A stretch of 62,492 nt of DNA from Syntrophaceae bacterium UBA1062. GTDB lineage: Bacteria; Desulfobacterota; Desulfomonilia; UBA1062. The position numbers and the translations under genes were made by a program. Of this stretch, positions 7,799 to 22,665 are shown in pieces. Position 1 is the stretch's first letter. Every line of letters starts with the position of its first letter. Location of the stretch: the NCBI GenBank assembly GCA_002316295.1, contig DCDF01000240.1, positions 1 through 62,492 on the forward strand, read 5' to 3'. A model generated the notes under the pieces. That model was not told where the DNA came from. It did not search any database and saw nothing but the letters and a program-made list of their open reading frames with translations.

Positions 7799-7809
7799 AA
7801 CCGCCCCTT

Positions 7810-10339: not shown

Positions 10340-10597
10340 CCAAAAACATCCCACCTTATAAGCAACAACTTTTCCTTTGTCAAGGTGCTTTTGCCTGCCT
10401 TCGGCCGGGCTTATACCCTGTGATCTCCTGTTTTCTCAGGTTCAGTTCTCTGAGGTGATTATCAAATTACCGCCCCCGATATCCATTGACAAATTCCCCT
10501 CCTCTCTTACCTTTCTCTTATGTAGGAAGCGTGATGTCTTGTTGATGGCAAGAGGAAGCATCCTACCTTGTGAACCGATACTGAGAAGAGGTGTCTC

Positions 10598-11482
10598 ATG
10601 AGTGGAAGCGAGAAGGCGAACCCCGATCTTCAGACAATCATCAGGCAATGGCTGAAGACAGGAAGCCCATCAGGGGCGGAGACTGAGCCTGGCAGCGGCG
10701 AACGTTCCTCCGAGCAAGGACAGAAAGCGCAGGCTGAACGGCTTTCGAAAGACGCCTACTTTTCCATGATGAGAACCTTCCAGGCGGTCTCATCGGCCAT
10801 GAGCGAGCCGCCGGTCCTCGACGCCCTCTTCCGCAGTGCGAACATTCTTCCGGATATCGTGTCCACCTTTGTCATCACAGGGTTGAAAGGATATTTCGCC
10901 CTCCATCAGCAGGTCATCGACAAGATGGGGAAAATTGGAAGCCATACAGACGCGTACAGCTTCGACAACATTGATCAGGAAGCCCTGCGCGTCTGGTCCG
11001 AGATTTACAAGAATGAGATCAGGCAGTACTTCAACGTGCCTCAGCTGGGCCTGAGCAGATTTTACCAGGAAAGAGTCAACCAGGCTCTCGACAAGTTCAA
11101 TATCTTCAGCTCTGCTCTGGCCGAATTTCTTCAGCTGCTCTCACTGCCTTTTGAAAAATCCTTTCGCGTTCTGCAGGAAAAGATCGAAGATCTCACCAGA
11201 ACCGGGAGCCTCCCGGAAGATTCCCGTGGGTATTATCAGATGTGGGTGAAAATCCTCGAAGGTCATTTCATGACCCTGTTCCAGTCGCCCGAGTACAACA
11301 AGTCTCTCGGCGAGACGATGACGGCGCTGGAGGACTACATCTCCGCCCGCAACAGGATTCTTCAGGACATGCTCCAGTCGATGCCTGTGCCGACGAGAAA
11401 GGAGATGGATGATCTTTATAAGGAAATATATCTCCTGAAAAAGAAGGTCCGCGATCTCGAAAAGGCGAACGGGAAGCAGTAG
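10598..11482 (+). CDS. phaE: class III PHA synthase subunit PhaE
   Basis: 294 aa. Conserved PhaE tail YQMWVKILEGHF...PEYNKSLGE...PVPTRKEMDDLYKEIYLLKKKVRDLEK. 16 nt upstream of phaC. Confidence 0.8.
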   Translation: MSGSEKANPDLQTIIRQWLKTGSPSGAETEPGSGERSSEQGQKAQAERLSKDAYFSMMRTFQAVSSAMSEPPVLDALFRSANILPDIVSTFVITGLKGYFALHQQVIDKMGKIGSHTDAYSFDNIDQEALRVWSEIYKNEIRQYFNVPQLGLSRFYQERVNQALDKFNIFSSALAEFLQLLSLPFEKSFRVLQEKIEDLTRTGSLPEDSRGYYQMWVKILEGHFMTLFQSPEYNKSLGETMTALEDYISARNRILQDMLQSMPVPTRKEMDDLYKEIYLLKKKVRDLEKANGKQ

Positions 11483-11498
11483 CAACAAAGGAGAAGCC

Positions 11499-12764
11499 AT
11501 GAACAAGCCGAAAATACCTGTGGATATCATTCTGAAACATCTTGCCGAGCAGGCGGAGGTGAGCCGGGAGCGGGTGCAGAAGGCGACCGATGTCCTGCTT
11601 GGCAACCTCGATACCGATATCGCAGCCACCCCGTACGAGGTGGTGTATGAGGAAGACCGTGTCAAACTCAAACACTATGCACGGTCTCCGAAGGCGGAAG
11701 ACGCCATGCAGACCCCTCTTCTGGTGGTCTACGCGCTCATCAACCGCGAGACTATGCTCGATCTCCAGCCGGAACGAAGCGTCGTGAAAAGCTTACTGGC
11801 AGACGGGGTCAATCTCTACATGGTGGACTGGGGATACCCCACCTATAAGGACAAGTTCCTCACCATAGACGATCATGTCAACGGCTATATGGACAATATC
11901 GTCGATTTCATCCTGAAGCGGGAAAAGGTCGAAAAGATCAACCTCATGGGAATCTGCATGGGGGGAACCTTCAGCGTCATGTATTCCGCCCTTCATCCCC
12001 ACAAGGTCAAAAACCTGGTGACCACGGTATGTCCTACGAACTTCGATACGAGGCAGGGGCTGCTGCACATCTGGATGAAGTGGATGGATGTGGACAAAAT
12101 GATCGACACCTTCGGCAACATGCCCGGGGACCTCATGAATTTCGGGTTTCTCCTGCTCAATCCGGCACGCCTCATGATAGACAAGTATATCGGATTCCTG
12201 GAAAATATGGACAACAAGGCCTTTGTCGAGAATTTCGTCAGGATGGAGAAATGGATTTTCGACAGCCCCGACGTGCCGGGTGAGACCTTCCGGCAGTTCA
12301 CCAAGGATCTCTACCAGAACAATCTCCTGATCGAGAACAGGCTTCACATCGGCGGCAGACATGTAGATCTCCGCAATATCACCATGCCGATGCTCAACAT
12401 ATACGCCCGGTACGACCATCTGGTGCCTCCGGAGGCGGCCGAAAAGATCACCAGTGTGGTAGGGAGCACCGACACCGAGAACGTGTGCCTCGAGACCGGA
12501 CATATCGGTATCTACGTCAGCTCCAAGACGCAGAAGGAGTTCGCTCCGAAAATCATCAGCTGGCTCAGGGAAAGAGAAGGCCGGCGTGAACCCGTGAACC
12601 AGGCCGGCCTGTACCGGAGAAAGTCCGTGCCGAAAAGGGCGCGTTCTTCCATAAGAAACTCATCTCTCAGCACCAAAAGAAAGAAGGAGTTGAGCCATGC
12701 CGGAAAGAAAAGACTTTTTTTCAACAATTTGCAAGGTGAGCAGGGCGTTCGGGACCACCCTTGA
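11499..12764 (+). CDS. phaC: class III PHA synthase catalytic subunit PhaC with basic C-terminal extension
   Basis: 421 aa. Lipase-box Cys GICMGG, Asp (ARYDHLVP), His (ETGHIGIY). The canonical end ...KIISWL is followed by 65 extra residues. Confidence 0.9.
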   Translation: MNKPKIPVDIILKHLAEQAEVSRERVQKATDVLLGNLDTDIAATPYEVVYEEDRVKLKHYARSPKAEDAMQTPLLVVYALINRETMLDLQPERSVVKSLLADGVNLYMVDWGYPTYKDKFLTIDDHVNGYMDNIVDFILKREKVEKINLMGICMGGTFSVMYSALHPHKVKNLVTTVCPTNFDTRQGLLHIWMKWMDVDKMIDTFGNMPGDLMNFGFLLLNPARLMIDKYIGFLENMDNKAFVENFVRMEKWIFDSPDVPGETFRQFTKDLYQNNLLIENRLHIGGRHVDLRNITMPMLNIYARYDHLVPPEAAEKITSVVGSTDTENVCLETGHIGIYVSSKTQKEFAPKIISWLREREGRREPVNQAGLYRRKSVPKRARSSIRNSSLSTKRKKELSHAGKKRLFFNNLQGEQGVRDHP

Positions 12765-13749
12765 GAAGGAGGACCTGCTGGACCTGATCGTCCAGAGCGC
12801 CATCGAAACCATGAATGGAAAGGCTGCAAGCCTTTTCATGCAGGATGAAGACCGGAAGAGCCCGTATTACTTCCCCATCGCGCAGAAAGGGCTCTCCAGC
12901 AACTATCTCCACATGGAGCCGAAAGAGGCGAAACGCGCCGCCGACGAGATTCTCAAGAAGGGATACATTGCCATACACGATGCAACCAAGGATACCCGGG
13001 TCCAGAACCACGCACTGAAAAAGGCCGAGGGAATAGCCTCCATTCTCGTCGTGCCGGTAATGGTCAGAAACACCGTGATCGGTGTTCTCGGACTGTACAC
13101 CGCAACACCCAGACGATTTACCGATGAGGAGATCGAGTTCCTCACCGCACTGGCCGAGCAGGGAGGAATGGCTATCGAGCATGCGAGGCTCGTGGAGCAG
13201 ATCCGCAGGAACACCGATCTCTTCCTCAACCTCTCGACGAATATCAACTCCAGCTTGGACATCAGAGACATCCTGGACATTCTCACCGTTGACGTTGCGA
13301 GGGCCTTCGGGGTAAAGGCCGTCTCCGTACGCCTCCTGGACAGGGAGAAGAAGATCCTTCAGCTGGTGAGCAGCTACGGTCTGAGCGAGAAATATCTCAA
13401 GAAGGGGCCGGTCTATGCGGAGAAGAGCATCGCCGAGGCACTCAAAGGAAATATCGTGGCGATCCGCGACGCCTCCACGGATGAGGGAGTGCAGTACAAG
13501 AACGAGAAAAAAGCGGAGGGGATCATGTCGATTCTCTGTGTGCCCATCAAGGCCATGAATGAGATTATCGGCGTGCTCAGGCTCTACAGCGGAGTCCCCC
13601 GGGTGTTTACCGAAGACGAGATCAAGCTGGCTACCGCCATAGCCAACCAGGGGGGTCTGGCGATTCATAATGCATCGCTGTATCTTATGCTCAAGGAGGA
13701 CATCAAGGATCTCAGGGATGATATCTGGAGCCACCGGTTGTGGTTCTGA
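12697..13749 (+). CDS. tandem GAF-domain protein (no output domain)
   Basis: 350 aa. Internal duplication: SILVVPVMVRNTVIGVLGLYTATPRRFTDEEIEFLTALAEQGGMAIEHARL versus SILCVPIKAMNEIIGVLRLYSGVPRVFTEDEIKLATAIANQGGLAIHNASL. AAGGAG RBS 7 nt upstream. Overlaps the phaC tail by 68 nt. Confidence 0.85.
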   Translation: MPERKDFFSTICKVSRAFGTTLEKEDLLDLIVQSAIETMNGKAASLFMQDEDRKSPYYFPIAQKGLSSNYLHMEPKEAKRAADEILKKGYIAIHDATKDTRVQNHALKKAEGIASILVVPVMVRNTVIGVLGLYTATPRRFTDEEIEFLTALAEQGGMAIEHARLVEQIRRNTDLFLNLSTNINSSLDIRDILDILTVDVARAFGVKAVSVRLLDREKKILQLVSSYGLSEKYLKKGPVYAEKSIAEALKGNIVAIRDASTDEGVQYKNEKKAEGIMSILCVPIKAMNEIIGVLRLYSGVPRVFTEDEIKLATAIANQGGLAIHNASLYLMLKEDIKDLRDDIWSHRLWF

Positions 13750-13849
13750 TGATTCCGGAATGCATTCTCTTCCCGCATGCGGCTTCTTCCTGTCCACCCG
13801 TTGCTCTTAAGGCCGGCGTGGACGGAAATTGTACAAAAGGAGTTTCCAT

Positions 13850-14278
13850 ATGCCAGGAAAAACCATATCCGAGATGAAGATTGGTGATTACGCGGAATTC
13901 GCCAAAACAATCGCCGAGGCCGATATCTATCTGTTTGCAGGTCTTACCGGAGATCTCAACCCGGCTCATGTCAACGAAGAATATGCCAGGGAAACCTTTT
14001 TCAAGACACGTATCGCCCACGGGATTCTCCAGGCCGGCTTCATTTCCGCAGCGATCGGGATGCAGCTGCCCGGCCCCGGAACCATCTACATCCGACAGGA
14101 GCTCAATTTCCTGGCTCCTGTCCGGATCGGTGATACCGTCACCGCCCGCGTGGAAGTCGCCGAGATAAACGCGGAGAAAAACCGTGTCGTGCTCAAGACC
14201 ACGTGCAGAAACCAGAACCAGGAGACGGTTCTGGACGGGCAAGCCCTGGTGAGCCCTCCCAAGTCGCCGAAAAAATAG
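13850..14278 (+). CDS. phaJ: (R)-specific enoyl-CoA hydratase, MaoC/hot-dog family
   Basis: Hydratase-2 motif LFAGLTGDLNPAHV. The ATG at 13850 with an AAAGGAG RBS is preferred over the TTG at 13829. Confidence 0.85.
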   Translation: MPGKTISEMKIGDYAEFAKTIAEADIYLFAGLTGDLNPAHVNEEYARETFFKTRIAHGILQAGFISAAIGMQLPGPGTIYIRQELNFLAPVRIGDTVTARVEVAEINAEKNRVVLKTTCRNQNQETVLDGQALVSPPKSPKK

Positions 14279-14384
14279 GCTTGGCGCACCCGCCCGCTAC
14301 ACTGCTGTCCGTCGGTCACCCATATGTGATGACAGAGATGCGCACCGCTGTTCAGCACACAAAGGGCGACATGCTCGAACCAGG

Positions 14385-14957
14385 CTATGACTTGCTTCTG
14401 GTCCGCGATCCCTTCTTGGTTGCCGCCTCCGCAGCCTTGTGCGTTTCTTCAGTGCCCGCGGTTTCCTGGAAGATCTTTGAAAAACTGATCATCATATCCT
14501 GAAACTGTTGCGTCTGCTTCTTCATCAGGTTCTGAAATGCACTGATGCCTTCTCCCTGCAGAGAGAGCCTCTCGTCAAGGACACTCCGGAGACGGCCGAT
14601 TTCTTCCTCCTGGCGCTGTGTCTTTTCCTTGAGCTCCTCGTAGTCCTTGAGCAGAGCCTGATATTCCGACTGAAGGGGGTAGTTCCAGGGGCAGCTCATA
14701 AGCGAGAGGAATCCACCCGTGAAAGATTTTTGAAAATCTTCTGCGGCCTTGATGGAGGCGCTGAAATATTCCGGGAGATCACGGAGGAAGAAATCCATGC
14801 CCCACCACTTGGCGTACATTTCGAAAAGATCCTGAAAACTTCCCAGGTCGCCTTTCATCATACGGGAAAAGTCTTCCATGAGCTTCTGGCCCCGCGCGGC
14901 GTTGAGGAACATGTTTCCCCAGAGCTCAAACGCCTGTGTCTGCGTCTGCATGATCAT
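14385..14957 (-). CDS. short PhaE-like coiled-coil partner of the second PHA synthase
   Basis: 190 aa. FEMYAKWWGMDFFLRDLPEYFSASIKAAEDF aligns by eye with PhaE YQMWVKILEGHFMTLFQSPEYNKSLGETMTALEDY and is followed by a coiled coil (EYQALLKDYEELKEKTQRQEEEIGRL). Overlaps or abuts the upstream gene stop. The alternative ATG at 14951 has better AGGAGG spacing. Confidence 0.5.
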   Translation of the reverse strand: MIMQTQTQAFELWGNMFLNAARGQKLMEDFSRMMKGDLGSFQDLFEMYAKWWGMDFFLRDLPEYFSASIKAAEDFQKSFTGGFLSLMSCPWNYPLQSEYQALLKDYEELKEKTQRQEEEIGRLRSVLDERLSLQGEGISAFQNLMKKQTQQFQDMMISFSKIFQETAGTEETHKAAEAATKKGSRTRSKS

Positions 14958-16531
14958 CCTCCTTTGTACGATGGATCGCTCTCCAGCTGGAAAAGAACCG
15001 GACCGCGGTAATTCTTCTCTCCGAACCGCTTGTCCAGTGCGAATTCAGATTTCGGATTGGACCAGGACGTGGCGATGGCAAGATGGCCCTTGGGGAATTC
15101 ACTCACTTCGACATCGATGAAGTCCCGGGGAGCAAGCGCCGTTTCCTTCTCCACCAAGTCATCCCTCTCACCGTAGCAGATGAGCCACTTCACTCCCTTC
15201 TGCGGCAGGCGGTGGAGATCCAGCTTCCTGCCGAAAAGGCGTACCGGCAGAACCCCTTCTGTGGTGATGGGGATGTTGTATGAACGGAAGCTCATCTTGG
15301 TGACCTCAAGAGGCAGGTCGGTCCGTTCATAGGAGAGCCAGTAGTTGATCGCCAGAGCGGTCTTGTTGAATCCATGCTTTGCCTTTCCGTCGGCTGAAAG
15401 CATGACCATGTCCCGATAGAAGCTGATGAGCGGAAACTCGTCGTCGATCGCCCTGAGCTTGTACACCCATCCCATCAGCTTCCCGTCGCCCACCCTGTTC
15501 CCGTTGGGCAAAGTCTTGGTGCCGTAGGCGAGATCGTTGAACCGCGGGGGGAGATTGTTCAGAAATGTGGCAAGCCCCGGGCTCCTGGTCCCGTCCATGG
15601 GGGAGACGCAGGTGATGAGCAAATCCACGAGATTGTCCAGCTCGCCCGAGAGAATCCCGCACAGAGAAGTAAATCCGCCCTGGCAGTATCCACACAGGGT
15701 TACCGGCTTTCCGTGCTCTTTTTTGACGATCTCGGAAAAGTAGGCGGTGTCTCGGACGTCGTCTTCGCCGGTCATGACCTGGAATGCGGGGGTCGTCCAG
15801 ATGTTCTTGGCGATCCGTATGTAGGTCGGTATCCCCCTGTTGGCGAAGGCGTGCACGAAACTCTTGTTGTCTCCGGGGAGAAAGGCGAGGATATTCGTGC
15901 CCAGCACAAACGGGGGGATAATGACGACCGGTTTGCCGTTTTTCCTGACCGATACGTCCGTACGGGAAGGAAGCACCTGGTAGAGCATGAACCTCTCGGT
16001 TTCCCCCGCTTTTCTGTAGCCTTCCTGATCGAAGTGAAATCCGTATTCGCTCCTGATGTTGCGGATGGCCTTGGGATACTCGTACACGACCTTTTCCATG
16101 AGGGCTTCGTGCTCGGAAAGCAGAGACTGAATGTCTTTGCCGTCCCTGGAAAAGACCGTATTGATCCACGCGTCTGTGATTTCTCCGTATCGAGGGAGGT
16201 AGTACTGACCGATAGTGGAGATGCTTGCTTTCAGGGCCCTCTGAGCAAGCTGCACATTCAGCAGGAGCAGCTTGGTGTAGTCCTGGATTGTCTGGGCGGG
16301 AGGGATTTCGAGGATTTTCTTTCTTTCGACAGCCTGGAAATAGCTCGATGAAATGACGAAGGCATCGATAAAGTCATGGAAGTAACGCAGCAGTCCGTTG
16401 AGGTAAACCTGCCCTTCCTTCCCTTGCGCCAGCGAGGCGAGCCACAGTTTCTCCACAGTATCGCTCAAACGCTCCAGGGGCTCCGTCTGAAACATCCGAT
16501 CGTACAGGTACTGGTTTTCGTCAGAAGCCAT
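14954..16531 (-). CDS. PHA synthase-like alpha/beta hydrolase with long N-terminal domain (PhaC2)
   Basis: Lipase-box Cys GYCQGG, Asp (YGERDDLV), His (FPKGHLAI), and PVVIIPPFVLGTNILAFLP resembling the PhaC N-domain. The ATG at 16531 follows AGGAGG+5 nt; the longest ORF starts at 16564. Confidence 0.8.
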   Translation of the reverse strand: MASDENQYLYDRMFQTEPLERLSDTVEKLWLASLAQGKEGQVYLNGLLRYFHDFIDAFVISSSYFQAVERKKILEIPPAQTIQDYTKLLLLNVQLAQRALKASISTIGQYYLPRYGEITDAWINTVFSRDGKDIQSLLSEHEALMEKVVYEYPKAIRNIRSEYGFHFDQEGYRKAGETERFMLYQVLPSRTDVSVRKNGKPVVIIPPFVLGTNILAFLPGDNKSFVHAFANRGIPTYIRIAKNIWTTPAFQVMTGEDDVRDTAYFSEIVKKEHGKPVTLCGYCQGGFTSLCGILSGELDNLVDLLITCVSPMDGTRSPGLATFLNNLPPRFNDLAYGTKTLPNGNRVGDGKLMGWVYKLRAIDDEFPLISFYRDMVMLSADGKAKHGFNKTALAINYWLSYERTDLPLEVTKMSFRSYNIPITTEGVLPVRLFGRKLDLHRLPQKGVKWLICYGERDDLVEKETALAPRDFIDVEVSEFPKGHLAIATSWSNPKSEFALDKRFGEKNYRGPVLFQLESDPSYKGG

Positions 16532-16564
16532 TGTCCCCTCCTGTGCGCGGCCGGGGCCGGTCAT

Positions 16565-16840
16565 TTATTTTTTCGATTTTTCCGCGGCGCTGAAATACTC
16601 GTCCACCTTTCGAAAATTCTCATCCACGGATTTCTTGAAATCATCTCTTCCCTTCTTGTAGGCGCCGATCCATTGATTCAGGACACTTTTGCCTTCTTCG
16701 GGGAGCCAGTTCGCCTGATCGAGGAAGGTCTTGGCCATCTTTTCCGTTTGCTCCTGAATCAACACCATTGCGTTGAAGCTGTTGTCGAAAGAGGCCTTCT
16801 GAAAATCAATCACCTGTCTTACCATCTGTTTCTGATCCAT
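16565..16840 (-). CDS. small phasin-like protein, paralog 1 (YKKGRDDFKK family)
   Basis: 91 aa, directly upstream of PhaC2. About half its residues are identical to the products of 17456..17836 and 17873..18151. Confidence 0.6.
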   Translation of the reverse strand: MDQKQMVRQVIDFQKASFDNSFNAMVLIQEQTEKMAKTFLDQANWLPEEGKSVLNQWIGAYKKGRDDFKKSVDENFRKVDEYFSAAEKSKK

Positions 16841-17214
16841 GCTGCTTCCTCCTTGGAATGGAATATCTCCCGCGGGGCATCTGTGTACCGCGCTTCACAG
16901 CCGGGACACAGCCGCCCCCGGGGCGTGAGCCGGATGGGGATTGGTCGGGATATCCATGAATCCGTCATCCGATGCATTCTTGAATAATACGATCCGTCTC
17001 GGTTCTTTCAAGATTCACCTGCTTTCAGCAGTTTTCCCGGCCGATATTCGAAGGCATGATTCGGCTGCTCGGTGATTGCGATCAACACCTCCGCAGGCGA
17101 TGCCTCTCCGATCCGCCCGTGCGGTATCACGATCCGGCTCCAGAGAGACGGCATGCCGGAGAGCCTGGGTAATTCTCCGATATTCCTTGACTTCAATCTC
17201 TTCCCTTGTCCCGA

Positions 17215-17380
17215 TCAGGTTATACTTCGAGTGAGCTTGCATGTCGTCGTCCTCTGTCGTCCCCGTACATCGGCGGCATGAAAACAGAGCGTCAAGCTCT
17301 TATTCGACCTCACTTCCTCCGGGATATCTGCAATTGCAAGAGCTTCAAGGCGATCCAGGAAAATATCAAAACAGTGATAT
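17215..17380 (-). pseudogene. possible decayed copy of the phasin-like family
   Basis: One reverse frame gives FDIFLDRLEALAIADIPEEVRSNKSLTL (compare FFLDRVPWMPEESKQLIL). A shifted frame gives MYGDDRGRR (compare MYKKGRDDLKR). No intact ORF or start codon. Confidence 0.25.
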
Positions 17381-17455
17381 TTTGGAGGATTTTCCGCGGC
17401 GCCGCCCGCCTGTGACCATTTTTCTTGAACGACCGGCAGACAGGCGGCTCTTCCC

Positions 17456-17836
17456 CTACTTTTCCGAACTCTTCTCCGCAGCTTTTCTCGATTCCGACGC
17501 AGCCCTGGAAGCCTGCTGAGCACTGCGTCTGGTTGTCTGCTGCGCCTGCTGGGCGGCACGCTCAGTAGCTTCGACTGTGGAAACCAGGTACGACTCCATT
17601 TTGTCATACCCGTCGTCCACGGCTCTCTTCAGATCGTCCCTGCCCTTTTTGTACATATTCCCCCACTCCAGGATTAACTGTTTGCTTTCCTCGGGCATCC
17701 ACGGGACCCTGTCAAGGAAGAAGCTGACGGACTTTTCCGCCTGGTCCTGGATAGTGACCATACTCCTGTACACGTTATCAAAGGCGCTTTTCTGAAAATC
17801 GAACGCCTGCTTGACCATGGTTTTCTGATCCATCAC
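17456..17836 (-). CDS. small phasin-like protein, paralog 2, with Ala/Gln/Ser-rich tail
   Basis: 126 aa. Shares DFQKSAFDN...IQDQAEK...FLD...WMPEESK...MYKKGRDDLKRAVDDGY with its paralogs. Confidence 0.6.
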   Translation of the reverse strand: MMDQKTMVKQAFDFQKSAFDNVYRSMVTIQDQAEKSVSFFLDRVPWMPEESKQLILEWGNMYKKGRDDLKRAVDDGYDKMESYLVSTVEATERAAQQAQQTTRRSAQQASRAASESRKAAEKSSEK

Positions 17837-17872
17837 CGGTCCCCCTTTCTCAAGTGCCCATCTATCGTCACA

Positions 17873-18151
17873 CTACCGTCCCACTCTGCCGAGCGAGGAA
17901 GTGAGATAGCCGCCGAGGTGATCAAATCCGTCATCTACGGCCTTCTTGAAGTCATCTCTGCCTTTTTTGTACATGCTCACCCATTCACTCAGAACGCCCT
18001 TGCTCTCCGATGGAAACCACCCTGTCTGATCCACGAAGGCATTGAAGACTTTCTCGGCCTGGTCCTGCATGGTAACGAGCGTCTCATAACCGTTGTCGAA
18101 GGCGGCTTTCTGCAAATCCACCATTTGTAAGGCCATGCTTTTCATGTCCAT
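17873..18151 (-). CDS. small phasin-like protein, paralog 3
   Basis: 92 aa. DLQKAAFDN...MQDQAEK...WFPSESK...MYKKGRDDFKKAVDDGF. AAGGGGGA RBS. 36 nt upstream of paralog 2. Confidence 0.6.
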   Translation of the reverse strand: MDMKSMALQMVDLQKAAFDNGYETLVTMQDQAEKVFNAFVDQTGWFPSESKGVLSEWVSMYKKGRDDFKKAVDDGFDHLGGYLTSSLGRVGR

Positions 18152-18192
18152 GATTCAATCCCCCTTTGCTTGAAAGCATTGATCTCAAACCA

Positions 18193-18220
18193 ATAATAGG
18201 GCTCCATGGTCAATTGTCAA
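18193..18220 (-). promoter_or_regulatory. candidate sigma-70 promoter of the phasin-like genes
   Basis: The reverse strand reads TTGACA-N16-TATTAT, about 40 nt upstream of the start codon at 18151. Confidence 0.45.
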
Positions 18221-18231
18221 GATAATTTTTG

Positions 18232-18241
18232 CATTGCAACA
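18232..18241. promoter_or_regulatory. CATTGCAACA motif, copy 1 (candidate PhaR operator)
   Basis: Lies just upstream of the -35 of the phasin promoter. An inverted copy is at 18353..18362. Confidence 0.3.
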
Positions 18242-18352
18242 TGCTGGATGAATCGCCTTTTTGCTGACAGAGATTGTATCTACCAGATTATATTAATATA
18301 TAATTATGTTCTTCCACCGTCTCAAATCGATTCCGTTGCCGAAGCAGAAAAT

Positions 18353-18362
18353 TGTTGCAATG
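18353..18362. promoter_or_regulatory. TGTTGCAATG motif, inverted copy 2 (candidate PhaR operator)
   Basis: Exact reverse complement of 18232..18241. About 135 nt upstream of phaR. Confidence 0.3.
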
Positions 18363-18495
18363 TAACATTCGTGTGGCGTTTGAGGTTTCCCTGTGATATA
18401 CAGACATGGACCGCCGGAGAAGAGAAGGCTTCTTGCCCGGCAACAACGCCGGGACAACCCTTTCCTTCGAGGGAAAGTTCTATCGGGGTGTATGA

Positions 18496-18966
18496 ATGGC
18501 TGACAGAGAAAAACTCAGGCTGAAAAAATACGGGAACCGGCGCCTGTATGATACGGCCCGGAGCACCTACGTCACGCTGAATCAGGTCGCGGATATCATC
18601 AAGCAGGGAACGGACGTGGAGGTCGTCGACGCGAAGACACAGGAAGATGTGACGGCATTTATTCTCACCCAGATCGTGCTGGAGCAGGCACGGAGAAAAA
18701 ACGCCCTTCTCCCCGTGGAGCTTCTCCATCTGATTATCCGCTATGGCGAAAACCTGCTGCAGGAATTTTTCCAGAAATATCTCGAGCAGACGATCAATGG
18801 GTATCTCCAGTTCAAGAGGTCCATGGACGAGCAGTTCAGCAAATGGATCGATATGCAGCTCAACTATTCGGATATGGCGCAGAAAACGTTTTCCGGACTG
18901 ACTCAATTGCAGAACATCTTCGGCCGGTCCCGGCAGACTCCGGGATCGAAAAACGACAAAGACTGA
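18496..18966 (+). CDS. phaR: PHA synthesis repressor PhaR
   Basis: 156 aa. N-terminal KKYGNRRLYDTARSTYVTLNQVADIIKQG matches the PHB/PHA accumulation regulator DNA-binding domain. Divergent from the phasin-like genes. Confidence 0.9.
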   Translation: MADREKLRLKKYGNRRLYDTARSTYVTLNQVADIIKQGTDVEVVDAKTQEDVTAFILTQIVLEQARRKNALLPVELLHLIIRYGENLLQEFFQKYLEQTINGYLQFKRSMDEQFSKWIDMQLNYSDMAQKTFSGLTQLQNIFGRSRQTPGSKNDKD

Positions 18967-19127
18967 TCCGCGAGCGGCCCCCGGAGCGCCGCCTCCGTTT
19001 ATCACGAGCGAAACCCGGTTCTTGCCTCGGGCCATCCTGAAGCCCGAACCGCCCGGGACACGCACCGACAACGGATCGCCCTCTCAACCATAAGGGCATC
19101 CGGGCCCGGTTTCCCCGTCACGGAGGC

Positions 19128-20204
19128 TCAGCCGGCGGCCGCCAACCCTGTCAAATCGGAAGCGGCTATCCTGCCCTTTATCGAGTACGCGGCCTCTTCG
19201 ACAAAGGCAAGGGCGGCGGGCCATTCGTGCTGCAGCGCTCTTCTGCCCATGAACACCGAGATGTGACCGGCCAGAGGAATCACCGCCTTGAAAATCTGGT
19301 CCCTGGGCGTTGAAGCATACAATTCGAGATTATGCACCTGGGGTATGAGGGTGATGTCGTCCCGCTCGCCGGCGAGCAGAGCCAGAGGGCACGATATATT
19401 CTGAAGGTCTACGTATTCACAGAGAACCTCCAGCGTGCCCTTGATGAGCCGGTTCTGCATGAAGAGCTTCTCCACTGCCTCGAGGTACCACCGTCCGGAG
19501 ATATCCTGGGTATACTCGTACCAGCGGCTGAATGTTTTTGTCCTCTTCAGATAATTCTCGTCCCTCACGTGTATCCAGAGGTTCAGATAGTCCCGGACGA
19601 ACCGGTCGTAGGCGTTCATCATCTTCCACCCCATGAGCATGAGGTCGCCGGACATGTTCCCCCCGCCGCAGTTTACGAGATACTGATAATACATGAGAGG
19701 AAGTGTATTCACGATATCCTGTATCTTCCCACCTCCGGCCGTGAAATCGATCGGAGCCGCGGCCAGCATGAGGGCACGGACATCTCCGGGAAACAGGGCG
19801 GCATAAATCGTGGCGAGCCATCCGCCCTGGCACAGGCCCGCGAGAACAACGGGCGCGCCCGCCTTTTTCACGCAGAGCATGACCTGCTGCACCAGATCGT
19901 CGATGGTCTCTTCTCTCCTGCTGAGCGTGCTCGATTTCCATTCGATTACATACACCGGACGGGCCGTATGCTTGAGGCATGTCTGAACCAGGCTCTGGCC
20001 GGGGGCATAGTCTGCAATGCTCGAATGGTGGCCAGCCTGGGGAGGGACGATCAGGATCGGGTCTCCTGTGCGGTCCTCATCGAATCTCCTCAAGACAACC
20101 GCCTTATCTTCGAAGATTTTCCTGTTCGGCGATATGAACTCCGGTTTTCCACGCGATGATGCGGTCTGAAAGAACTTCATGAGATCTGCATAAGGCGTAT
20201 TCAT
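19128..20204 (-). CDS. Cys-Asp-His alpha/beta hydrolase, PhaC class III-like or Cys-type intracellular PHA depolymerase (PhaZ-like)
   Basis: 358 aa. GLCQGG box, LAGERDDIT, PLAGHISVFMGRR. PPQAGHH and GHxxxFxGRR recall PhaZ-type depolymerases (from memory only). AAGGAG RBS. Confidence 0.75.
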   Translation of the reverse strand: MNTPYADLMKFFQTASSRGKPEFISPNRKIFEDKAVVLRRFDEDRTGDPILIVPPQAGHHSSIADYAPGQSLVQTCLKHTARPVYVIEWKSSTLSRREETIDDLVQQVMLCVKKAGAPVVLAGLCQGGWLATIYAALFPGDVRALMLAAAPIDFTAGGGKIQDIVNTLPLMYYQYLVNCGGGNMSGDLMLMGWKMMNAYDRFVRDYLNLWIHVRDENYLKRTKTFSRWYEYTQDISGRWYLEAVEKLFMQNRLIKGTLEVLCEYVDLQNISCPLALLAGERDDITLIPQVHNLELYASTPRDQIFKAVIPLAGHISVFMGRRALQHEWPAALAFVEEAAYSIKGRIAASDLTGLAAAG

Positions 20205-20524
20205 GGTGCATCTCCTTGGTGTATGAAATTGTGCCTTGCGGCTGGGGAGCGCTGATAAGAACCGATGATCCCGAGAGGGTACGCCGGTGCTGCCCTTGGT
20301 GCTGATACGGGTGCAAAAACAACTCGTTGATGCCCTTTCACGCCTTTCTTATACATCTTTTCCCAGTGCCAGTCCAGGAAGAAGTTAACACTGTAGAAAT
20401 CTTCGATTATCTGAGAATTTCTCGCAATAGGTTTGTGTTCCAACGTGTTGATATTTGTGAGAAATCGAATCCATCTCCATGAAGCGGTCGCCTTCCGGCC
20501 CACCGCCCGTTTTCTTAATTCCAT
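20201..20524 (-). CDS. hypothetical protein, divergent or truncated phasin-like paralog 4
   Basis: 107 aa from the ATG at 20524. SVNFFLDWHWEKMYKKG compares with SVSFFLD...WGNMYKKG in paralog 2. Its stop overlaps the start of the downstream hydrolase (ATGA). Weak RBS; the start is uncertain. Confidence 0.3.
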   Translation of the reverse strand: MELRKRAVGRKATASWRWIRFLTNINTLEHKPIARNSQIIEDFYSVNFFLDWHWEKMYKKGVKGHQRVVFAPVSAPRAAPAYPLGIIGSYQRSPAARHNFIHQGDAP

Positions 20525-20928: not shown

Positions 20929-21846
20929 TTACTTTGCCTTCACGTCACCGGCGAGGAACCCCGGCTCGCCGTATGAGGGGTTCGGATACTTGTAGAAGCC
21001 TTCCTTGGTCTTGAACCCCAGGAGCCCTTTGTCCACATACCCTTTCAGAAAAGCCGCATTCGCCAGGGCCTGTGGATCGCCGGTCTTCCTGGCCCAGTAA
21101 TCGGTAATGGTATAGACCGTGGAGAGCCCGACCTGGTCCATGATGCCGAAGGGTCCGATCGGGGTGTGCATGACGCCCATCCACGAACGGTCGATGTCCT
21201 CGATAGAAGCCACCCCCTTCGATGCCAGAGAGAGCGAGGAGAAGAACAGGCTCGAAAGCATGGTGTTGAACACATAGCCGTTGTTTTCGCGGTTGAGCGT
21301 AATGACGATCTGCCCGATGCTCCTGGCAAACTCGCGGACGAGCTCGGTCACCTCCGGCGCGGTGCCCGGATGGGGCATGACGTCCACCACGCTGGAGGTC
21401 CGGACGTCATGGAAATGCAGGGCCGCGAACTTCTCCGGCCTGCCCGTCTTGTCCGCGATCATGGAGGGAACCAGCATCGATGTGTTGGTCGTGAAGATAG
21501 TCCTCTCCGGACAGAGCTCGTTGAACTGGTTGAATACCCGGGCTTTGACCGCCGGGTCCTCCGGCACGGACTCGCTGATGAAATCGGCGTCGCGGGCGGC
21601 AAGAGCCGGGTCCGAGGTGCCGGAGATGCGCGCCATGATCTCGCCGAGCTGCTCGGGGGCGATACGGCCTGTGGAGACAAACCACGACCCGAGCTTCTGC
21701 ATGCGGCTGATGGATTTGTCCAGGATCTCCTGGGAAATATCGTACATGACCACAGTGTATCCGTGCATTGCACAGGTGAACCCGATCTGCTGGCCCATCG
21801 TCCCTGCACCGAGGATGAGAACGCGCCTGATGTCGGAAAGTTTCAT
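20929..21846 (-). CDS. hbd: 3-hydroxyacyl-CoA (3-hydroxybutyryl-CoA) dehydrogenase
   Basis: 305 aa. Rossmann motif ILGAGTMGQQIG plus the HAD C-terminal domain. Confidence 0.9.
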   Translation of the reverse strand: MKLSDIRRVLILGAGTMGQQIGFTCAMHGYTVVMYDISQEILDKSISRMQKLGSWFVSTGRIAPEQLGEIMARISGTSDPALAARDADFISESVPEDPAVKARVFNQFNELCPERTIFTTNTSMLVPSMIADKTGRPEKFAALHFHDVRTSSVVDVMPHPGTAPEVTELVREFARSIGQIVITLNRENNGYVFNTMLSSLFFSSLSLASKGVASIEDIDRSWMGVMHTPIGPFGIMDQVGLSTVYTITDYWARKTGDPQALANAAFLKGYVDKGLLGFKTKEGFYKYPNPSYGEPGFLAGDVKAK

Positions 21847-21900
21847 GTCATTTCCTCCTTCAATAGTATGTATGCATCCGCCTTCTGCGGTGATCCGGGC

Positions 21901-22665
21901 TTACGCCAGCGCGCCTCCGTCCACCACGAACGATGCTCCGGTCGTGAAAGGCGCGGCGTCAGAAACCAGATAGAGCACCGCCCCGGCCATCTCCATGGGC
22001 TTCGCATGCCGCCCCATGGGGATCATCTTGACCGCGTAATCGTAGATCATGTCGTTTTCCATGATGGCCTTGGAGAAATGGGTGTCCACCAGGCCGGGTA
22101 GCAGGGCGTTGACCCGGATGTTCTTGGTTGCGAGCTCTTTGGCGAAGGCCTGTGTCATGGAGATGAGGCCGGCCTTGGTGATGGAGTAGATCCCCTGAAA
22201 CGGTGCGGGCTTGACGCCGTTGATGGAGGACACGTTCACGATGGAGCCACCGCCCGCCTCGATCATGAGCTTGGCCGCGTTCTGCACCAGGAAAAAGGGG
22301 CCCTTGAGATTCACGTCGAATGTCTTGTTCCACACCCCTTCGTCCGCGCCGAGCATCTCGCCGAAGTAGGGATTGGTGGCGGCGTTGTTGATGAGGATGT
22401 TGAGCGTGCCGTACTGCCGCCTGATCTTGCCGAAGAGCTCCTGGATCTGACCGAGATCGCCCACGTGGCAGGCCATCACCTCAGCCTTGCCTCCTCGGGA
22501 GGCGATCTTGCCGGCAACGCTTTGCAGGGCCTCCGCCTTTCTGCTCACCAGGATGCAGTGAGCCCCGTAATCGGCCAGAGTCACTGCGATGGCTTCCCCG
22601 ATACCCCTGCTCGCTCCGGTCACCAGGGCGATTTTTCCATCAAGCCGGAAATCTACCTTCTCCAT
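21901..22665 (-). CDS. SDR family oxidoreductase (FabG/LvaD-like)
   Basis: 254 aa. TGASRGIGEAIA, NNAA, and catalytic YSITKAG. Confidence 0.9.
   Translation of the reverse strand: MEKVDFRLDGKIALVTGASRGIGEAIAVTLADYGAHCILVSRKAEALQSVAGKIASRGGKAEVMACHVGDLGQIQELFGKIRRQYGTLNILINNAATNPYFGEMLGADEGVWNKTFDVNLKGPFFLVQNAAKLMIEAGGGSIVNVSSINGVKPAPFQGIYSITKAGLISMTQAFAKELATKNIRVNALLPGLVDTHFSKAIMENDMIYDYAVKMIPMGRHAKPMEMAGAVLYLVSDAAPFTTGASFVVDGGALA

What the first reader, a model, noticed from the sequence alone, without database searches (positions are those of the whole stretch)
10598..20204. Three different Cys-Asp-His PhaC-type hydrolases within 10 kb
The locus encodes three alpha/beta hydrolases carrying the PHA-synthase lipase-box cysteine:
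- PhaC1: GICMGG, 421 aa, with PhaE.
- PhaC2: GYCQGG, about 525 aa, with a 190-aa PhaE-like partner.
- A 358-aa protein: GLCQGG, with no PhaE.

Each has downstream Asp (YDHLV / ERDDLV / ERDDIT) and His (GHIGIY / GHLAI / GHISVF) residues. Most described PHA producers carry a single synthase class per locus. Here a class III pair, a class I-length enzyme with a class III-type partner, and a third minimal enzyme sit together with phaJ, phaR and a GAF protein. This implies either substrate specialisation or a combined synthesis and mobilisation machine.
Basis: partly seen in the sequence, partly recalled or inferred. Interest (0 to 1): 0.7.

Follow-up and report, generated by a model that had tools for sequence, protein, structure and literature searches.

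The report
Three PhaC-like enzymes, one PHA locus
A bioplastic-storage (PHA) gene cluster of an anaerobic Desulfomonilia bacterium encodes one ordinary PHA synthase and two further intact relatives, one of which belongs to a widespread, unnamed and mislabelled family that may be a new kind of PHA synthase or breakdown enzyme.

Summary
Window 10598-20204 encodes three very divergent (22-27% identical) Cys-Asp-His alpha/beta hydrolases of the PHA synthase/depolymerase superfamily, and each triad is invariant across its own family.

- **PhaE + PhaC1:** a canonical class III synthase (TIGR01836, 443 bits, above cut-off).
- **PhaC2 (524 aa):** no Pfam hit and no passing NCBIfam model. Public records call its relatives "metal transporter" or hypothetical. 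A profile search and a pLDDT-93 model both put it nearest to class I PHA synthases. It is translationally coupled to a 190-aa coiled-coil partner and follows three small phasin-like genes next to phaR.
- **Conserved cassette:** this arrangement, with phaEC, a GAF gene and phaJ, recurs across about 80 Desulfobacterota genomes, including Desulfococcus multivorans and Desulfonema magnum.
- **The 358-aa protein:** it sits between class III PhaC and intracellular PhaZ, carries PhaZ-type motifs, and elsewhere lies beside class I-type synthases. It is most likely the depolymerase.

Best reading: one synthase, a second synthase-like heteromer of an undescribed class, and a depolymerase. The direction of PhaC2's reaction is unproven. 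I rate this a new variant of a known kind, of moderately high interest.

The parts
10598..11482 (+). phaE, class III synthase subunit (294 aa)
   Evidence: PF09712 scores 94.5 bits, above the 25.7 cut-off. TIGR01834 matches only the C-terminal part and falls below cut-off. It is 39% identical to the D. multivorans PhaE locus.
11499..12764 (+). phaC1, class III PHA synthase catalytic subunit (421 aa); C153/D306/H335; basic 60-aa tail
   Evidence: TIGR01836 scores 442.8 bits, above the 365.3 cut-off. The triad is kept in 43 of 43 orthologues. It is 63% identical to the D. multivorans PhaC locus.
12697..13749 (+). stand-alone double-GAF protein (350 aa), conserved between phaC1 and phaJ
   Evidence: Two GAF domains: GAF_2 122 bits and GAF 116 bits. 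It is present in 39 of 46 long loci.
13829..14278 (+). phaJ-type (R)-specific enoyl-CoA hydratase, MaoC fold (149 aa)
   Evidence: PF01575 scores 82 bits. It is present in 29 of 46 long loci.
14385..14957 (-). 190-aa coiled-coil partner of PhaC2 (new family, no model)
   Evidence: No Pfam or NCBIfam family. A homologue lies directly downstream of PhaC2 in 64 of 77 loci. Its ATG overlaps the PhaC2 stop. The family has about 540 members, all hypothetical. It shows only a weak similarity to the PhaE C-terminus.
14954..16528 (-). PhaC2: divergent PhaC-superfamily enzyme (524 aa) with an N-terminal three-helix domain and an alpha/beta core; C294/D468/H494 in the numbering of the 536-aa ORF
   Evidence: No Pfam hit, and TIGR01836 gives only 25 bits. 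A family profile finds PHA synthases 5xav, 5hz2, 5t6o and 9knj. The AF2 model has pLDDT 93, and its top Foldseek hits are PhaC structures. The triad is invariant in 59 of 59 members.
16565..16840 (-). small phasin-like protein (91 aa)
   Evidence: One of three paralogues (45-46% identical to the other two; alignment A4). Small genes lie upstream of PhaC2 in 76 of 81 loci. Homologues also sit next to class I-type PhaC genes in L094 and L095. No Pfam family.
17456..17836 (-). small phasin-like protein (126 aa, basic tail)
   Evidence: Alignment A4.
17873..18151 (-). small phasin-like protein (92 aa)
   Evidence: Alignment A4. A sigma-70-like site matching 11 of 12 positions lies just upstream at 18220-18193.
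18152..18495 (.). divergent phaR / phasin-operon control region with three TTnTTGCnnnGyAACA repeats
   Evidence: A role as PhaR operator is inferred only.
18496..18966 (+). phaR, PHA-responsive repressor (156 aa)
   Evidence: PF07879 scores 91 bits. TIGR01848 scores 106.3 bits, just under its 109.45 cut-off. It lies divergent from the phasin/PhaC2 operon in 60 of 67 loci.
19128..20204 (-). 358-aa PhaC/PhaZ-intermediate hydrolase (DUF3141 + PHB_depo_C); C125/D282/H314; predicted depolymerase
   Evidence: PF11339 scores 60 bits and PF06850 scores 50.7 bits, both above cut-off. TIGR01836 (129 bits) and TIGR01849 (70.5 bits) are both far below cut-off. hhalign gives 9e-41 to class III PhaC and 3e-27 to PhaZ. 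It carries the PhaZ-type motifs PPQAGHH and DDIT.
20929..22665 (-). 3-hydroxyacyl-CoA dehydrogenase and SDR, co-directional and upstream of the 358-aa gene (context)
   Evidence: Pfam assignments. The string ACAD-TetR-APH-SDR-3HCDH-third is conserved in 7 loci.

Best explanation
The region is a complete, conserved Desulfobacterota PHA-granule gene cluster with a division of labour.

1. **Main synthase.** PhaE-PhaC1 is the standard class III synthase. It polymerises (R)-3-hydroxyacyl-CoA, which PhaJ supplies from the beta-oxidation genes flanking the locus.
2. **Regulator and phasins.** PhaR sits back to back with an operon that starts with three small phasin-like proteins.
3. **Second polymerase-type enzyme.** The same operon encodes PhaC2 and its translationally coupled 190-aa coiled-coil partner. 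PhaC2 is a catalytically intact, very divergent PhaC homologue with a class I-like architecture: an N-terminal helical domain followed by a catalytic domain. I read the pair as a second, heteromeric, polymerase-type enzyme of an undescribed class. It would be made once PhaR is titrated off by nascent granules.
4. **Depolymerase.** The 358-aa Cys enzyme is the intracellular depolymerase of the set. It probably acts through an acyl-Cys intermediate that CoA can resolve (thiolysis), feeding 3-hydroxyacyl-CoA to the adjacent dehydrogenases.

**Shown:** homology, fold, intact triads, operon structure and conservation of the cassette.

**Inferred:** every catalytic direction, the granule association of the small proteins, and the PhaC2-partner complex.
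For: **PhaC1/PhaE.**
- PhaC1 passes the class III cut-off.
- It is orthologous (63% identity) to the D. multivorans PhaEC locus. Hai et al. 2004 identified that locus as a class III PhaEC synthase; only the reference, as cited in PMC2939530, could be seen here, and its heterologous activity is recalled from memory.

**PhaC2.**
- A profile of 59 members hits only PHA synthases in the PDB at E below 1e-3: 5xav 5e-10, 5hz2 8e-8, 5t6o 2e-5, 9knj 1e-4. In the two best hits shown residue by residue (5xav, 5hz2), Cys, Asp and His fall on the catalytic residues.
- The AF2 model has pLDDT 93. Its first 15 Foldseek hits are all PhaC structures, with full-length A. caviae PhaC first at 2.6e-14.
- NCBIfam: 38 of 59 members weakly hit class III PhaC, 7 hit class I, and none hits PhaZ.
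- hhalign: class III 6e-15, class I-type 2e-10, third family 2e-20, PhaZ 0.015, which is not significant.
- Motifs are PhaC-like: PPxVLGxNILxFLP, GYCQGG and W..ERTDLP.
- It occupies the same slot, downstream of the small phasin-like genes, that a class I-type PhaC occupies in L094, where the genes share a strand and order. In L095 the class I-type PhaC lies beside, but convergent to, the small genes.
- The ATGA overlap with the partner suggests a stoichiometric complex, as in PhaEC.

**Third protein.**
- It passes the PHB_depo_C cut-off.
- It shares GH in the beta3 loop, CQ at the nucleophile and DDIT at the Asp with real PhaZ sequences from Methylorubrum and Rhizobium. These motifs are conserved in 108-112 of 112 members.
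- hhalign to PhaZ gives 3e-27.
- It has no partner and no N-terminal domain.
- It lies beside synthases of different classes in different genomes.
- It ends a conserved co-directional ACAD-SDR-3HCDH string.

**Precedent.** PhaZa1 with a phasin releases 3HB-CoA from granules when CoA is present (Uchino 2007, as summarised in PMC7147478).
Against: - No experiment exists for any member of the PhaC2 or third families.
- PhaC2 replaces the Asp-His pair seen in all 43 PhaC1 orthologues and in the class I PhaC sequences aligned here, and universal in PhaCs as far as I recall, with Asp-Asp. PhaZ and the third family do the same. This could mark a hydrolytic or thiolytic enzyme.
- PhaC2 co-occurs with PhaEC in 40 of 46 long loci and does not replace it. 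That pattern suits a complementary function such as mobilisation better than a redundant second synthase.
- Most cassette genomes lack the third-family gene nearby (10 of 46). Their depolymerase is therefore unaccounted for, and PhaC2 is a candidate.
- The third family scores higher against class III PhaC (290) than against PhaZ (201) in hhalign.
- The closest plasmid relative of the third protein sits in a stress island with no pha genes.
- An intact triad does not guarantee polymerase activity, as H. mediterranei PhaC2 shows (PMC2939530).
Confidence: 0.42

Rival explanations
1. PhaC2 with its partner is the conserved mobilisation enzyme of these anaerobes. On this reading it is a PhaC-derived, granule-bound, Cys-dependent depolymerase that runs the synthase reaction backwards (thiolysis to 3-hydroxyacyl-CoA), which saves the thioester bond. 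PhaEC is then the only synthase, and the 358-aa protein is an accessory second depolymerase or oligomer hydrolase present in some lineages.
For: - PhaC2 co-occurs strictly with PhaEC and does not replace it (40 of 46 long loci).
- No other depolymerase candidate exists in most cassettes, since the third family is nearby in only 10 of 46.
- PhaC2 shares the Asp-Asp and Cys-Gln motifs with PhaZ.
- It is co-transcribed with phasin-like genes, and PhaZa1 needs a phasin for thiolysis (PMC7147478).
- Syntrophs and sulfate reducers live on tight energy budgets (general knowledge).
Against: - PhaC2 shows no significant profile similarity to the PhaZ family (hhalign E 0.015), and 0 of 59 members hit TIGR01849.
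- Its beta3-loop motif is PhaC-type, not the GH of PhaZ.
- Its N-terminal helical domain and obligate-looking partner are synthase features.
- In L094 a bona fide class I-type PhaC occupies the same slot downstream of the small genes.
Confidence: 0.28
2. All three proteins are PHA synthases specialised for different substrates, for example short-chain versus medium-chain 3-hydroxyacyl-CoA from beta-oxidation, or for different conditions.
For: - All three keep Cys-Asp-His and the GxCxGG box.
- The third family's best profile match is class III PhaC at 9e-41.
- The locus is embedded in fatty-acid degradation genes and has a PhaJ.
- Organisms with several PhaCs are known (PMC2939530).
Against: - The third protein fails every PhaC cut-off, passes PHB_depo_C, and carries PhaZ-type motifs.
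- It has no PhaE- or PhaR-type partner, whereas every known synthase of about 350 aa (classes III and IV) needs one (established knowledge).
- From memory, only short-chain PHA was reported in sulfate reducers by Hai et al. 2004, a paper not held here.
Confidence: 0.12
3. PhaC2 and/or the 358-aa protein do not act on PHA at all. They could be acyltransferases or thioesterases for other (thio)esters, or non-catalytic granule scaffold proteins that merely sit in the locus.
For: - Solitary PhaC2 paralogues exist with no pha context: L022, L036, L070 and L076.
- The B. vietnamiensis relative of the third protein has no pha neighbours.
- H. mediterranei PhaC2 is inactive despite an intact triad (PMC2939530).
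Against: - The triads are invariant over wide divergence, which argues for catalysis.
- Linkage to phaR, phasin-like genes and phaEC is very tight across orders of Desulfobacterota.
- The only detectable relatives of both proteins are PHA enzymes.
Confidence: 0.1

Closest known systems
Class III PHA synthase PhaE/PhaC (Allochromatium vinosum type; D. multivorans PhaEC)
   Same: PhaE-PhaC1 is a member: it passes the family cut-off, has the phaE-phaC gene order and the Cys-Asp-His triad with the DH motif. PhaC2 also resembles it in having a small coiled-coil subunit encoded next to the catalytic subunit.
   Different: PhaC2 scores only 25 bits against the class III model. It is 524 aa long and has a 160-aa N-terminal helical domain. 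The gene order is reversed, with the catalytic gene first. The partner is not recognisably PhaE. The motif is DD rather than DH.
Class I PHA synthase (C. necator, Chromobacterium sp. USM2, Aeromonas caviae; PDB 5t6o, 5hz2, 5xav, 6k3c, 9knj-l)
   Same: These are the best structural and profile matches for PhaC2. They share its overall length, its architecture of an N-terminal helical domain plus an alpha/beta core with a cap, and the positions of the catalytic Cys, Asp and His.
   Different: Identity is 15-20%. No PhaC_N or Abhydrolase_1 Pfam hit is found. TIGR01838 is hit weakly by only 7 of 59 members. Class I enzymes work as homodimers without a partner subunit. His448 of the DH motif lies in the class I dimer interface (PMC5509742), and it is Asp in PhaC2.
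Intracellular PHB depolymerase PhaZa1 family (TIGR01849; PF06850)
   Same: It uses the same Cys-Asp-His triad. The 358-aa protein shares its beta3-loop GH, its CQ nucleophile motif and its DDI[TC] Asp motif, and passes PF06850. PhaC2 shares only CQ and DD.
   Different: The 358-aa protein scores 70 bits against a cut-off of 301, is 50-80 aa shorter, keeps the GG of the lipase box and the Trp of the PhaC W..D motif, and is nearer to class III PhaC in profile space.
DUF3141 proteins (PF11339; e.g. the 796-aa Rhizobium protein in L087; the granule-associated A0671/B1632 of C. necator, from memory)
   Same: The 358-aa protein passes the PF11339 cut-off over model positions 64-327. hhalign to a Rhizobium DUF3141 protein gives 8e-18.
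   Different: The Pfam model spans about 580 positions and the one example examined is 796 aa. The 358-aa protein covers only their hydrolase core. The combination DUF3141 + PHB_depo_C was noted as peculiar to a Desulfobacteraceae protein in bioRxiv 10.1101/693432.
Multi-PhaC organisms (Haloferax mediterranei phaC, C1-C3; Pseudomonas phaC1-phaZ-phaC2)
   Same: These have several PhaC-superfamily genes in one organism or locus, and in Pseudomonas the synthase and depolymerase are clustered.
   Different: Those paralogues are 43-58% identical and of one class (PMC2939530). Here the three are 22-27% identical and belong to three different families, one of them unnamed.

Membership tests
Class III PHA synthase (PhaC1/PhaE) | The catalytic subunit passes the TIGR01836 curated cut-off | tested here: met
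   442.8 bits against a cut-off of 365.3, matching model positions 4-350 of 350.
Class III PHA synthase (PhaC1/PhaE) | An adjacent phaE subunit gene | tested here: met
   PF09712 scores 94.5 bits against 25.7. phaE ends 16 nt before phaC1.
Class III PHA synthase (PhaC1/PhaE) | Cys-Asp-His triad with GxCxGG and DH | tested here: met
   C153, D306-H307 and H335, kept in 43 of 43 orthologues.
Class III PHA synthase (PhaC1/PhaE) | Polymerase activity on short-chain 3-hydroxyacyl-CoA | not testable with these tools
   Inferred from 63% identity to the D. multivorans PhaC locus. Hai et al. 2004 is not held here.
PHA synthase, any described class I-IV (PhaC2) | Passes a class model (TIGR01836, TIGR01838 or TIGR01839) or Pfam PhaC_N/Abhydrolase_1 | tested here: not met
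   No Pfam hit. TIGR01836 gives 25 bits against 365. Across 59 family members the best E-value is 4e-12, and none is near the cut-off.
PHA synthase, any described class I-IV (PhaC2) | PhaC fold with the catalytic Cys-Asp-His in equivalent positions | tested here: met
   Profile-to-PDB alignments place Cys, Asp and His on the PhaC catalytic residues. The first 15 Foldseek hits are all PhaC structures. The triad is invariant in 59 of 59 members.
PHA synthase, any described class I-IV (PhaC2) | Asp-His pair at the catalytic Asp | tested here: not met
   The family consensus is GExDDLVE. D468 is invariant and D469 is at least 90% conserved in the 27 close relatives.
PHA synthase, any described class I-IV (PhaC2) | The partner is a PhaE or a class IV PhaR homologue | tested here: inconclusive
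   hhalign of the partner against the PhaE C-terminus gives probability 21-26% and E about 1e-3, against a reversed control of 0.036. One of 18 members hits PF09712 at 0.038.
PHA synthase, any described class I-IV (PhaC2) | Polymerase activity | not testable with these tools
   Needs expression and assay.
Intracellular PHA depolymerase PhaZ (TIGR01849) (358-aa protein) | Passes the TIGR01849 cut-off | tested here: not met
   70.5 bits against a cut-off of 300.75.
Intracellular PHA depolymerase PhaZ (TIGR01849) (358-aa protein) | PHB_depo_C domain (PF06850) | tested here: met
   50.7 bits against a cut-off of 27. All 120 listed relatives carry PF06850.
Intracellular PHA depolymerase PhaZ (TIGR01849) (358-aa protein) | PhaZ-type motifs: GH in the beta3 loop, CQ at the nucleophile, DDI[TC] at the Asp, GH at the His | tested here: met
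   Alignment with Methylorubrum and Rhizobium PhaZ. Conserved in 108-112 of 112 members.
Intracellular PHA depolymerase PhaZ (TIGR01849) (358-aa protein) | Depolymerase or thiolytic activity on native granules | not testable with these tools
   Needs an assay.
Class III/IV PhaC (358-aa protein) | Passes TIGR01836 and has a PhaE/PhaR-type partner | tested here: not met
   128.8 bits against 365.3. The gene is monocistronic relative to any small coiled-coil gene.
DUF3141 (PF11339) (358-aa protein) | Passes the Pfam cut-off | tested here: met
   60 bits against 29.7, but only model positions 64-327 of 582 are covered.
Phasins (small 91/126/92-aa proteins) | Match to a phasin model (PF09361, PF05597, PF09602 and others) | tested here: not met
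   Only 2 of 24 members give sub-threshold Phasin_2 hits. The assignment rests on context: next to phaR, and upstream of PhaC2 or a class I-type PhaC.

The most novel reading that the evidence does not exclude
PhaC2 and its 190-aa partner define a fifth, heteromeric class of PHA synthase. It would have a class I-like catalytic subunit with an N-terminal helical domain and its own coiled-coil subunit. It is restricted to anaerobic Desulfobacterota (sulfate reducers, syntrophs, partners of alkane oxidisers), has been overlooked because databases call it 'metal transporter', and works alongside the class III enzyme. An equally new alternative is that it is the first synthase-derived, partner-dependent thiolytic depolymerase.
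Probability: 0.4. Interest if true: 0.75.

Novelty: new variant of a known kind. Interest (0 to 1): 0.6.

Why it matters
**Classification.** PHA synthases are sorted into four classes, and that scheme underlies both genome annotation and bioplastic enzyme engineering. Here a fifth, structurally PhaC-like family with its own partner is conserved next to phaR and phaEC. It occurs in about 440 of 185,579 species-representative genomes. Even so, it matches no Pfam family, passes no NCBIfam model, and carries a wrong name.

**Consequences for surveys.** PHA capacity in anoxic sediments, digesters and syntrophic consortia is probably being misread by marker-gene surveys.

**If it is a synthase.** It offers a new scaffold and a natural two-synthase system to study.

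**If it is a depolymerase.** It would show how energy-limited anaerobes recover storage carbon without losing the thioester bond.

**The 358-aa family.** It bridges PhaC and PhaZ in sequence space, so it is a useful handle on how polymerase and depolymerase diverged.

Tried and rejected
1. **PhaC2 as a rearranged PhaE-PhaC fusion.** The idea was that its N-terminal domain equals the PhaE N-part and the partner equals the PhaE C-part. hhalign of PhaC2 residues 1-165 against PhaE, the partner and the small proteins gave nothing (probability at most 5%). Rejected.
2. **Partner = PhaE.** Only a weak co-linear match to PhaE 192-294 was found. A profile search of 5.8 billion proteins listed only family members without Pfam domains in the top 120, so it could not show a link. 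Left inconclusive.
3. **Single-sequence searches for PhaC2.** Pfam, the PDB and phmmer against 1.84 billion representatives never reached a canonical PhaC. Only profiles and structure did.
4. **First AF2 model.** Built from 27 close homologues, it was poor (pLDDT 65) and was not used. The 59-sequence alignment gave pLDDT 93.
5. **Sigma-54 promoter under the upstream NtrC-type regulator.** No convincing site lies near the pha genes, and matches were fewer than chance.
6. **Rfam scan of 9500-21000.** It found only the tRNA-Gly.
7. **Context of solitary PhaC2 paralogues (L022, L036).** The neighbours are unrelated genes, which is uninformative.
8. **Literature.** Hai et al. 2004 is not held.
9. 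**'Metal transporter' or cation-efflux annotation.** Nothing in sequence, profile or structure supports it.

Full report
**1. What is in the sequence.**

The ORF map and family scans give the following gene order.

| Coordinates | Strand | Product |
|---|---|---|
| 6437-9579 | - | NtrC-type response regulator and histidine kinase |
| 9797-10042 | + | Small membrane protein |
| 10265-10339 | - | tRNA-Gly |
| 10598-11482 | + | phaE |
| 11499-12764 | + | phaC1 |
| 12697-13749 | + | Double-GAF protein |
| 13829-14278 | + | MaoC/PhaJ hydratase |
| 14385-14957 | - | 190-aa protein |
| 14954-16564 | - | PhaC2 |
| 16565-16840, 17456-17836, 17873-18151 | - | Three paralogous small proteins |
| 18496-18966 | + | phaR |
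| 19128-20204 | - | 358-aa hydrolase |

Both flanks carry beta-oxidation-type genes: a thiolase, acyl-CoA dehydrogenases, an acyl-CoA synthetase, a 3-hydroxyacyl-CoA dehydrogenase and an SDR.

Near-identical proteins in public data come from Desulfomonilia MAGs.

**2. The three hydrolases are real, intact and only distantly related.**

- Pairwise BLASTP gives 22.5% identity for PhaC1-third (3e-24), 27% for PhaC2-third (3e-10) and 24.5% for PhaC1-PhaC2 (1e-6). These are ancient paralogues, not recent duplicates.
- The Cys-Asp-His residues are invariant in 43 of 43 PhaC1 orthologues and in 111-112 of 112 members of the 358-aa family.
- In the PhaC2 family they are invariant in 59 of 59 members down to 19% identity. 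There, only five columns are invariant at all, and three of them are the triad.
- None of the three looks like a decayed pseudoenzyme.

**3. PhaE/PhaC1 is ordinary.**

- PhaC1 scores 443 bits on TIGR01836 (cut-off 365), and PhaE passes PF09712.
- PhaC1 is 63% identical to the PhaC encoded at the Desulfococcus multivorans pha locus. Hai et al. 2004 identified that locus as a class III PhaEC. Only the reference, as cited in PMC2939530, could be seen here, so the reported heterologous activity is from memory.

**4. PhaC2 is the unusual part.**

*No existing model recognises it.*
- It has no Pfam hit and no PDB sequence hit. Its only NCBIfam hit is 25 bits to class III PhaC.
- phmmer against 1.84 billion cluster representatives finds just 259 relatives and no canonical PhaC.
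- Public names for its relatives are 'metal transporter', 'cation-efflux family protein' or 'hypothetical'. Only occasional pipelines call it PhaC.

*Profiles and structure place it with PHA synthases.*
- A profile of 59 members recovers only PHA synthases in the PDB at E below 1e-3: 5xav 5e-10, 5hz2 8e-8, 5t6o 2e-5 and 9knj 1e-4. In the two best hits shown residue by residue (5xav, 5hz2), the Cys of GYCQGG aligns on the GFCVGG Cys, and the Asp and His align on the catalytic residues.
- With the same alignment, AlphaFold gives a confident model (pLDDT 93, pTM 0.89). It has three long N-terminal helices (residues 15-160) followed by an alpha/beta core with an inserted cap.
- The first 15 Foldseek hits are all PhaC structures. 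Full-length Aeromonas caviae PhaC comes first (2.6e-14, about 540 aligned columns), then Chromobacterium and C. necator. Lipases follow four or more orders of magnitude weaker, at about 1e-8.

*Profile-profile scores.*

| Pair | hhalign E-value |
|---|---|
| PhaC2 - third family | 2e-20 |
| PhaC2 - class III PhaC | 6e-15 |
| PhaC2 - class I-type PhaC | 2e-10 |
| PhaC2 - PhaZ | 0.015 (not significant) |

- Thirty-eight of 59 members weakly hit TIGR01836, and none hits the PhaZ model.
- PhaC2 is therefore a deep, separate branch on the synthase side of the superfamily.
- One difference from known synthases stands out. The residue after the catalytic Asp is Asp, not His (GExDDLVE). In Chromobacterium PhaC that His lies in the dimer interface (PMC5509742).

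**5. The cassette around PhaC2 is conserved.**

A scan of one genome per species found 438 relatives. Eighty loci were fetched, and three more came from contig look-ups. tblastn with the window's proteins gives these counts.

| Feature | Loci with the feature |
|---|---|
| Partner homologue directly downstream of PhaC2 | 64 of 77 |
| Small genes upstream of PhaC2 | 76 of 81 |
| phaR divergent upstream | 60 of 67 |
| PhaC1 (loci longer than 15 kb) | 40 of 46 |
| PhaE (loci longer than 15 kb) | 40 of 46 |
| GAF protein (loci longer than 15 kb) | 39 of 46 |
| MaoC (loci longer than 15 kb) | 29 of 46 |
| True orthologue of the 358-aa gene (loci longer than 15 kb) | 10 of 46 |

- The hosts span Desulfomonilia, Syntrophaceae and Desulfobacterales. 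They include D. multivorans (L001), Desulfonema magnum (L043), Desulfatibacillum, Desulfotignum and an Eth-SRB2 MAG (a Desulfobacteraceae bacterium).
- The PhaC2 stop overlaps the partner's ATG (ATGA), and a GGAGG lies inside PhaC2's last codons. PhaC2's own start is M13, behind an AGGAGG.
- Sigma-70-like sites and three TTGC..AACA repeats lie in the phaR-phasin intergenic region.

**6. The partner and the small proteins.**

- Neither has a Pfam or NCBIfam model.
- The partner family has about 540 members, all hypothetical.
- The partner's central segment (VPxxEYxxLxxKYExLKxK...) aligns co-linearly with the C-terminal 100 residues of PhaE, but only weakly: probability 21-26%, E about 1e-3, reversed control 0.036. 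I call this inconclusive.
- The small proteins are helical, about 90 aa long, and occur in one to three tandem copies.
- Homologues of the small proteins also lie next to class I-type PhaC genes in Desulfatiferula (L094) and another MAG (L095). Together with their position opposite phaR, this supports a phasin-like role.
- No phasin model is matched. Only 2 of 24 members give sub-threshold hits.

**7. The 358-aa protein sits between synthase and depolymerase.**

- It passes Pfam PHB_depo_C (50.7 bits against 27) and DUF3141 (60 bits against 29.7). It fails TIGR01836 (129 against 365) and TIGR01849 (70 against 301).
- I fetched eight real PhaZ genes from plasmids. hhalign then gives third-class III 9e-41, third-PhaZ 3e-27, third-DUF3141 8e-18 and third-class I 2e-16, whereas class III-PhaZ is only 4e-8. 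The family is a hub joining PhaC and PhaZ.
- At motif level it shares several features with PhaZ:
  - the beta3-loop GH (PPQAGHH against APLSGHY);
  - the CQ at the nucleophile;
  - the DDIT at the Asp.
- It also keeps two PhaC features, the GG and the Trp. All of these are near-invariant in its family.
- It has no partner.
- Elsewhere it lies beside class I-type synthases. Here it lies beside class III and PhaC2.
- In seven related loci it ends a conserved co-directional string ACAD-TetR-APH-SDR-3HCDH.
- This is the behaviour expected of a locus depolymerase. The Cys nucleophile would allow the CoA-dependent thiolysis shown for PhaZa1 with a phasin (PMC7147478 summarising Uchino 2007).
- Two cautions apply. 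Its best profile partner is class III PhaC. Its nearest plasmid relative (43% identity, B. vietnamiensis pBVIE02) sits among FtsH, MFS and ATPase genes with no pha neighbours.
- A 2019 preprint had already remarked on the DUF3141 + PHB_depo_C combination in a Desulfobacteraceae protein (10.1101/693432).

**8. How it most likely works, and the main rival.**

*Best reading (confidence about 0.42).*
- PhaEC starts and makes PHA from PhaJ-supplied monomers.
- Nascent polymer titrates PhaR. This releases the operon that makes the phasin-like proteins and PhaC2 with its partner, a second polymerase-type heteromer of a new class.
- The 358-aa enzyme mobilises the polymer.

*Main rival (about 0.28).*
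- PhaC2 with its partner is itself the conserved mobilisation enzyme, a synthase run in reverse.
- Three observations favour it: PhaC2 always accompanies PhaEC and never replaces it, most cassettes have no other depolymerase candidate nearby, and PhaC2 shares DD and CQ with PhaZ.
- Four observations count against it: no detectable affinity to the PhaZ family, a PhaC-type beta3 loop, the N-terminal domain with a partner, and a true PhaC occupying the same slot in L094 (L095 places one beside, but convergent to, the small genes).

*Less likely readings.*
- Three specialised synthases (0.12).
- Enzymes that do not act on PHA (0.10).

The H. mediterranei case is a warning that an intact triad does not prove polymerase activity (PMC2939530).

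**9. Novelty and verdict.**

- Several PhaC paralogues, and synthase-depolymerase clustering, are both known.
- The new elements are these:
  - a conserved, catalytically intact, structurally PhaC-like family with its own partner family and its own phasin-like family;
  - none of these families matches a Pfam model or passes an NCBIfam cut-off, and PhaC2's relatives are mislabelled 'metal transporter';
  - all sit in a fixed cassette across Desulfobacterota.
- I found no description of it in the held literature. That library is incomplete.
- I rate it a new variant of a known kind, with interest 0.6.
- The decisive experiments are simple expression and granule assays.

Noticed in passing
window 12576-12764 (PhaC1 residues 360-421); also the C-termini of the partner (about 14385-14450) and of the 126-aa small protein (about 17456-17550): PhaC1 ends in a 60-aa basic Ser/Lys/Arg-rich tail beyond the class III model. 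The tail overlaps the start of the GAF ORF by 68 nt. Both the tail and the overlap are conserved in related loci and in D. multivorans. The partner and one small protein also end in basic low-complexity tails. These recall the histone-like DNA-binding tails of PhaM and PhaF (from memory).
   Followed up: partly
window 12697-13749: A stand-alone double-GAF protein with no output domain is conserved between phaC1 and phaJ in 39 of 46 long loci. Its role in PHA metabolism is unknown.
   Followed up: partly
window 18152-18495: The phaR / phasin-operon intergenic region holds three copies of TTnTTGCnnnGyAACA (18226, 18352, 18430), two of which form a 13-nt inverted pair. It also holds divergent sigma-70-like sites, including an 11-of-12 match at 18220-18193. 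These are candidate PhaR operators.
   Followed up: partly
window 16841-17455: A 616-bp non-coding gap separates the first two small genes from the third. It has its own sigma-70-like site (17011-16984, 10 of 12). This suggests a second promoter for the 91-aa gene-PhaC2-partner unit.
   Followed up: no
window 10265-10339 (-): A tRNA-Gly(GCC) lies between the small membrane protein gene and phaE.
   Followed up: yes
window 20929-25756; L005, L006, L008, L010, L013, L016, L024: The string ACAD-TetR-APH kinase-like-SDR-3HCDH runs co-directionally into the 358-aa gene and is conserved in seven related loci. A 725-bp gap (20205-20928) with no convincing ORF separates 3HCDH from the 358-aa gene.
   Followed up: partly
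L084 (B. vietnamiensis G4 plasmid pBVIE02, 5905-6987): The closest relative of the 358-aa protein in the plasmid collection (43% identity, annotated 'PHB de-polymerase domain protein') sits among FtsH, MFS, UbiB-like and P-type ATPase genes. It has no pha genes nearby.
   Followed up: partly
L022 (Desulfonema magnum, second copy), L036, L070, L076: These are solitary PhaC2 paralogues without the partner, the small genes, phaR or phaEC. Their neighbours are unrelated (histidine-degradation genes, an ABC transporter, a sigma-54 activator).
   Followed up: partly
L094 7839-13715 (Desulfatiferula olefinivorans): Downstream of the third-family gene, and next to a class I-type PhaC, lie three ORFs without any Pfam family (317, 190 and 1342 aa). 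The 190-aa ORF is not detectably related to the PhaC2 partner.
   Followed up: no
window 6437-9579: A PAS histidine kinase and a sigma-54-dependent response regulator lie just upstream of the pha cluster. No sigma-54 promoter motif was found near the pha genes, and this pair is not conserved next to the cassette in other genomes.
   Followed up: partly
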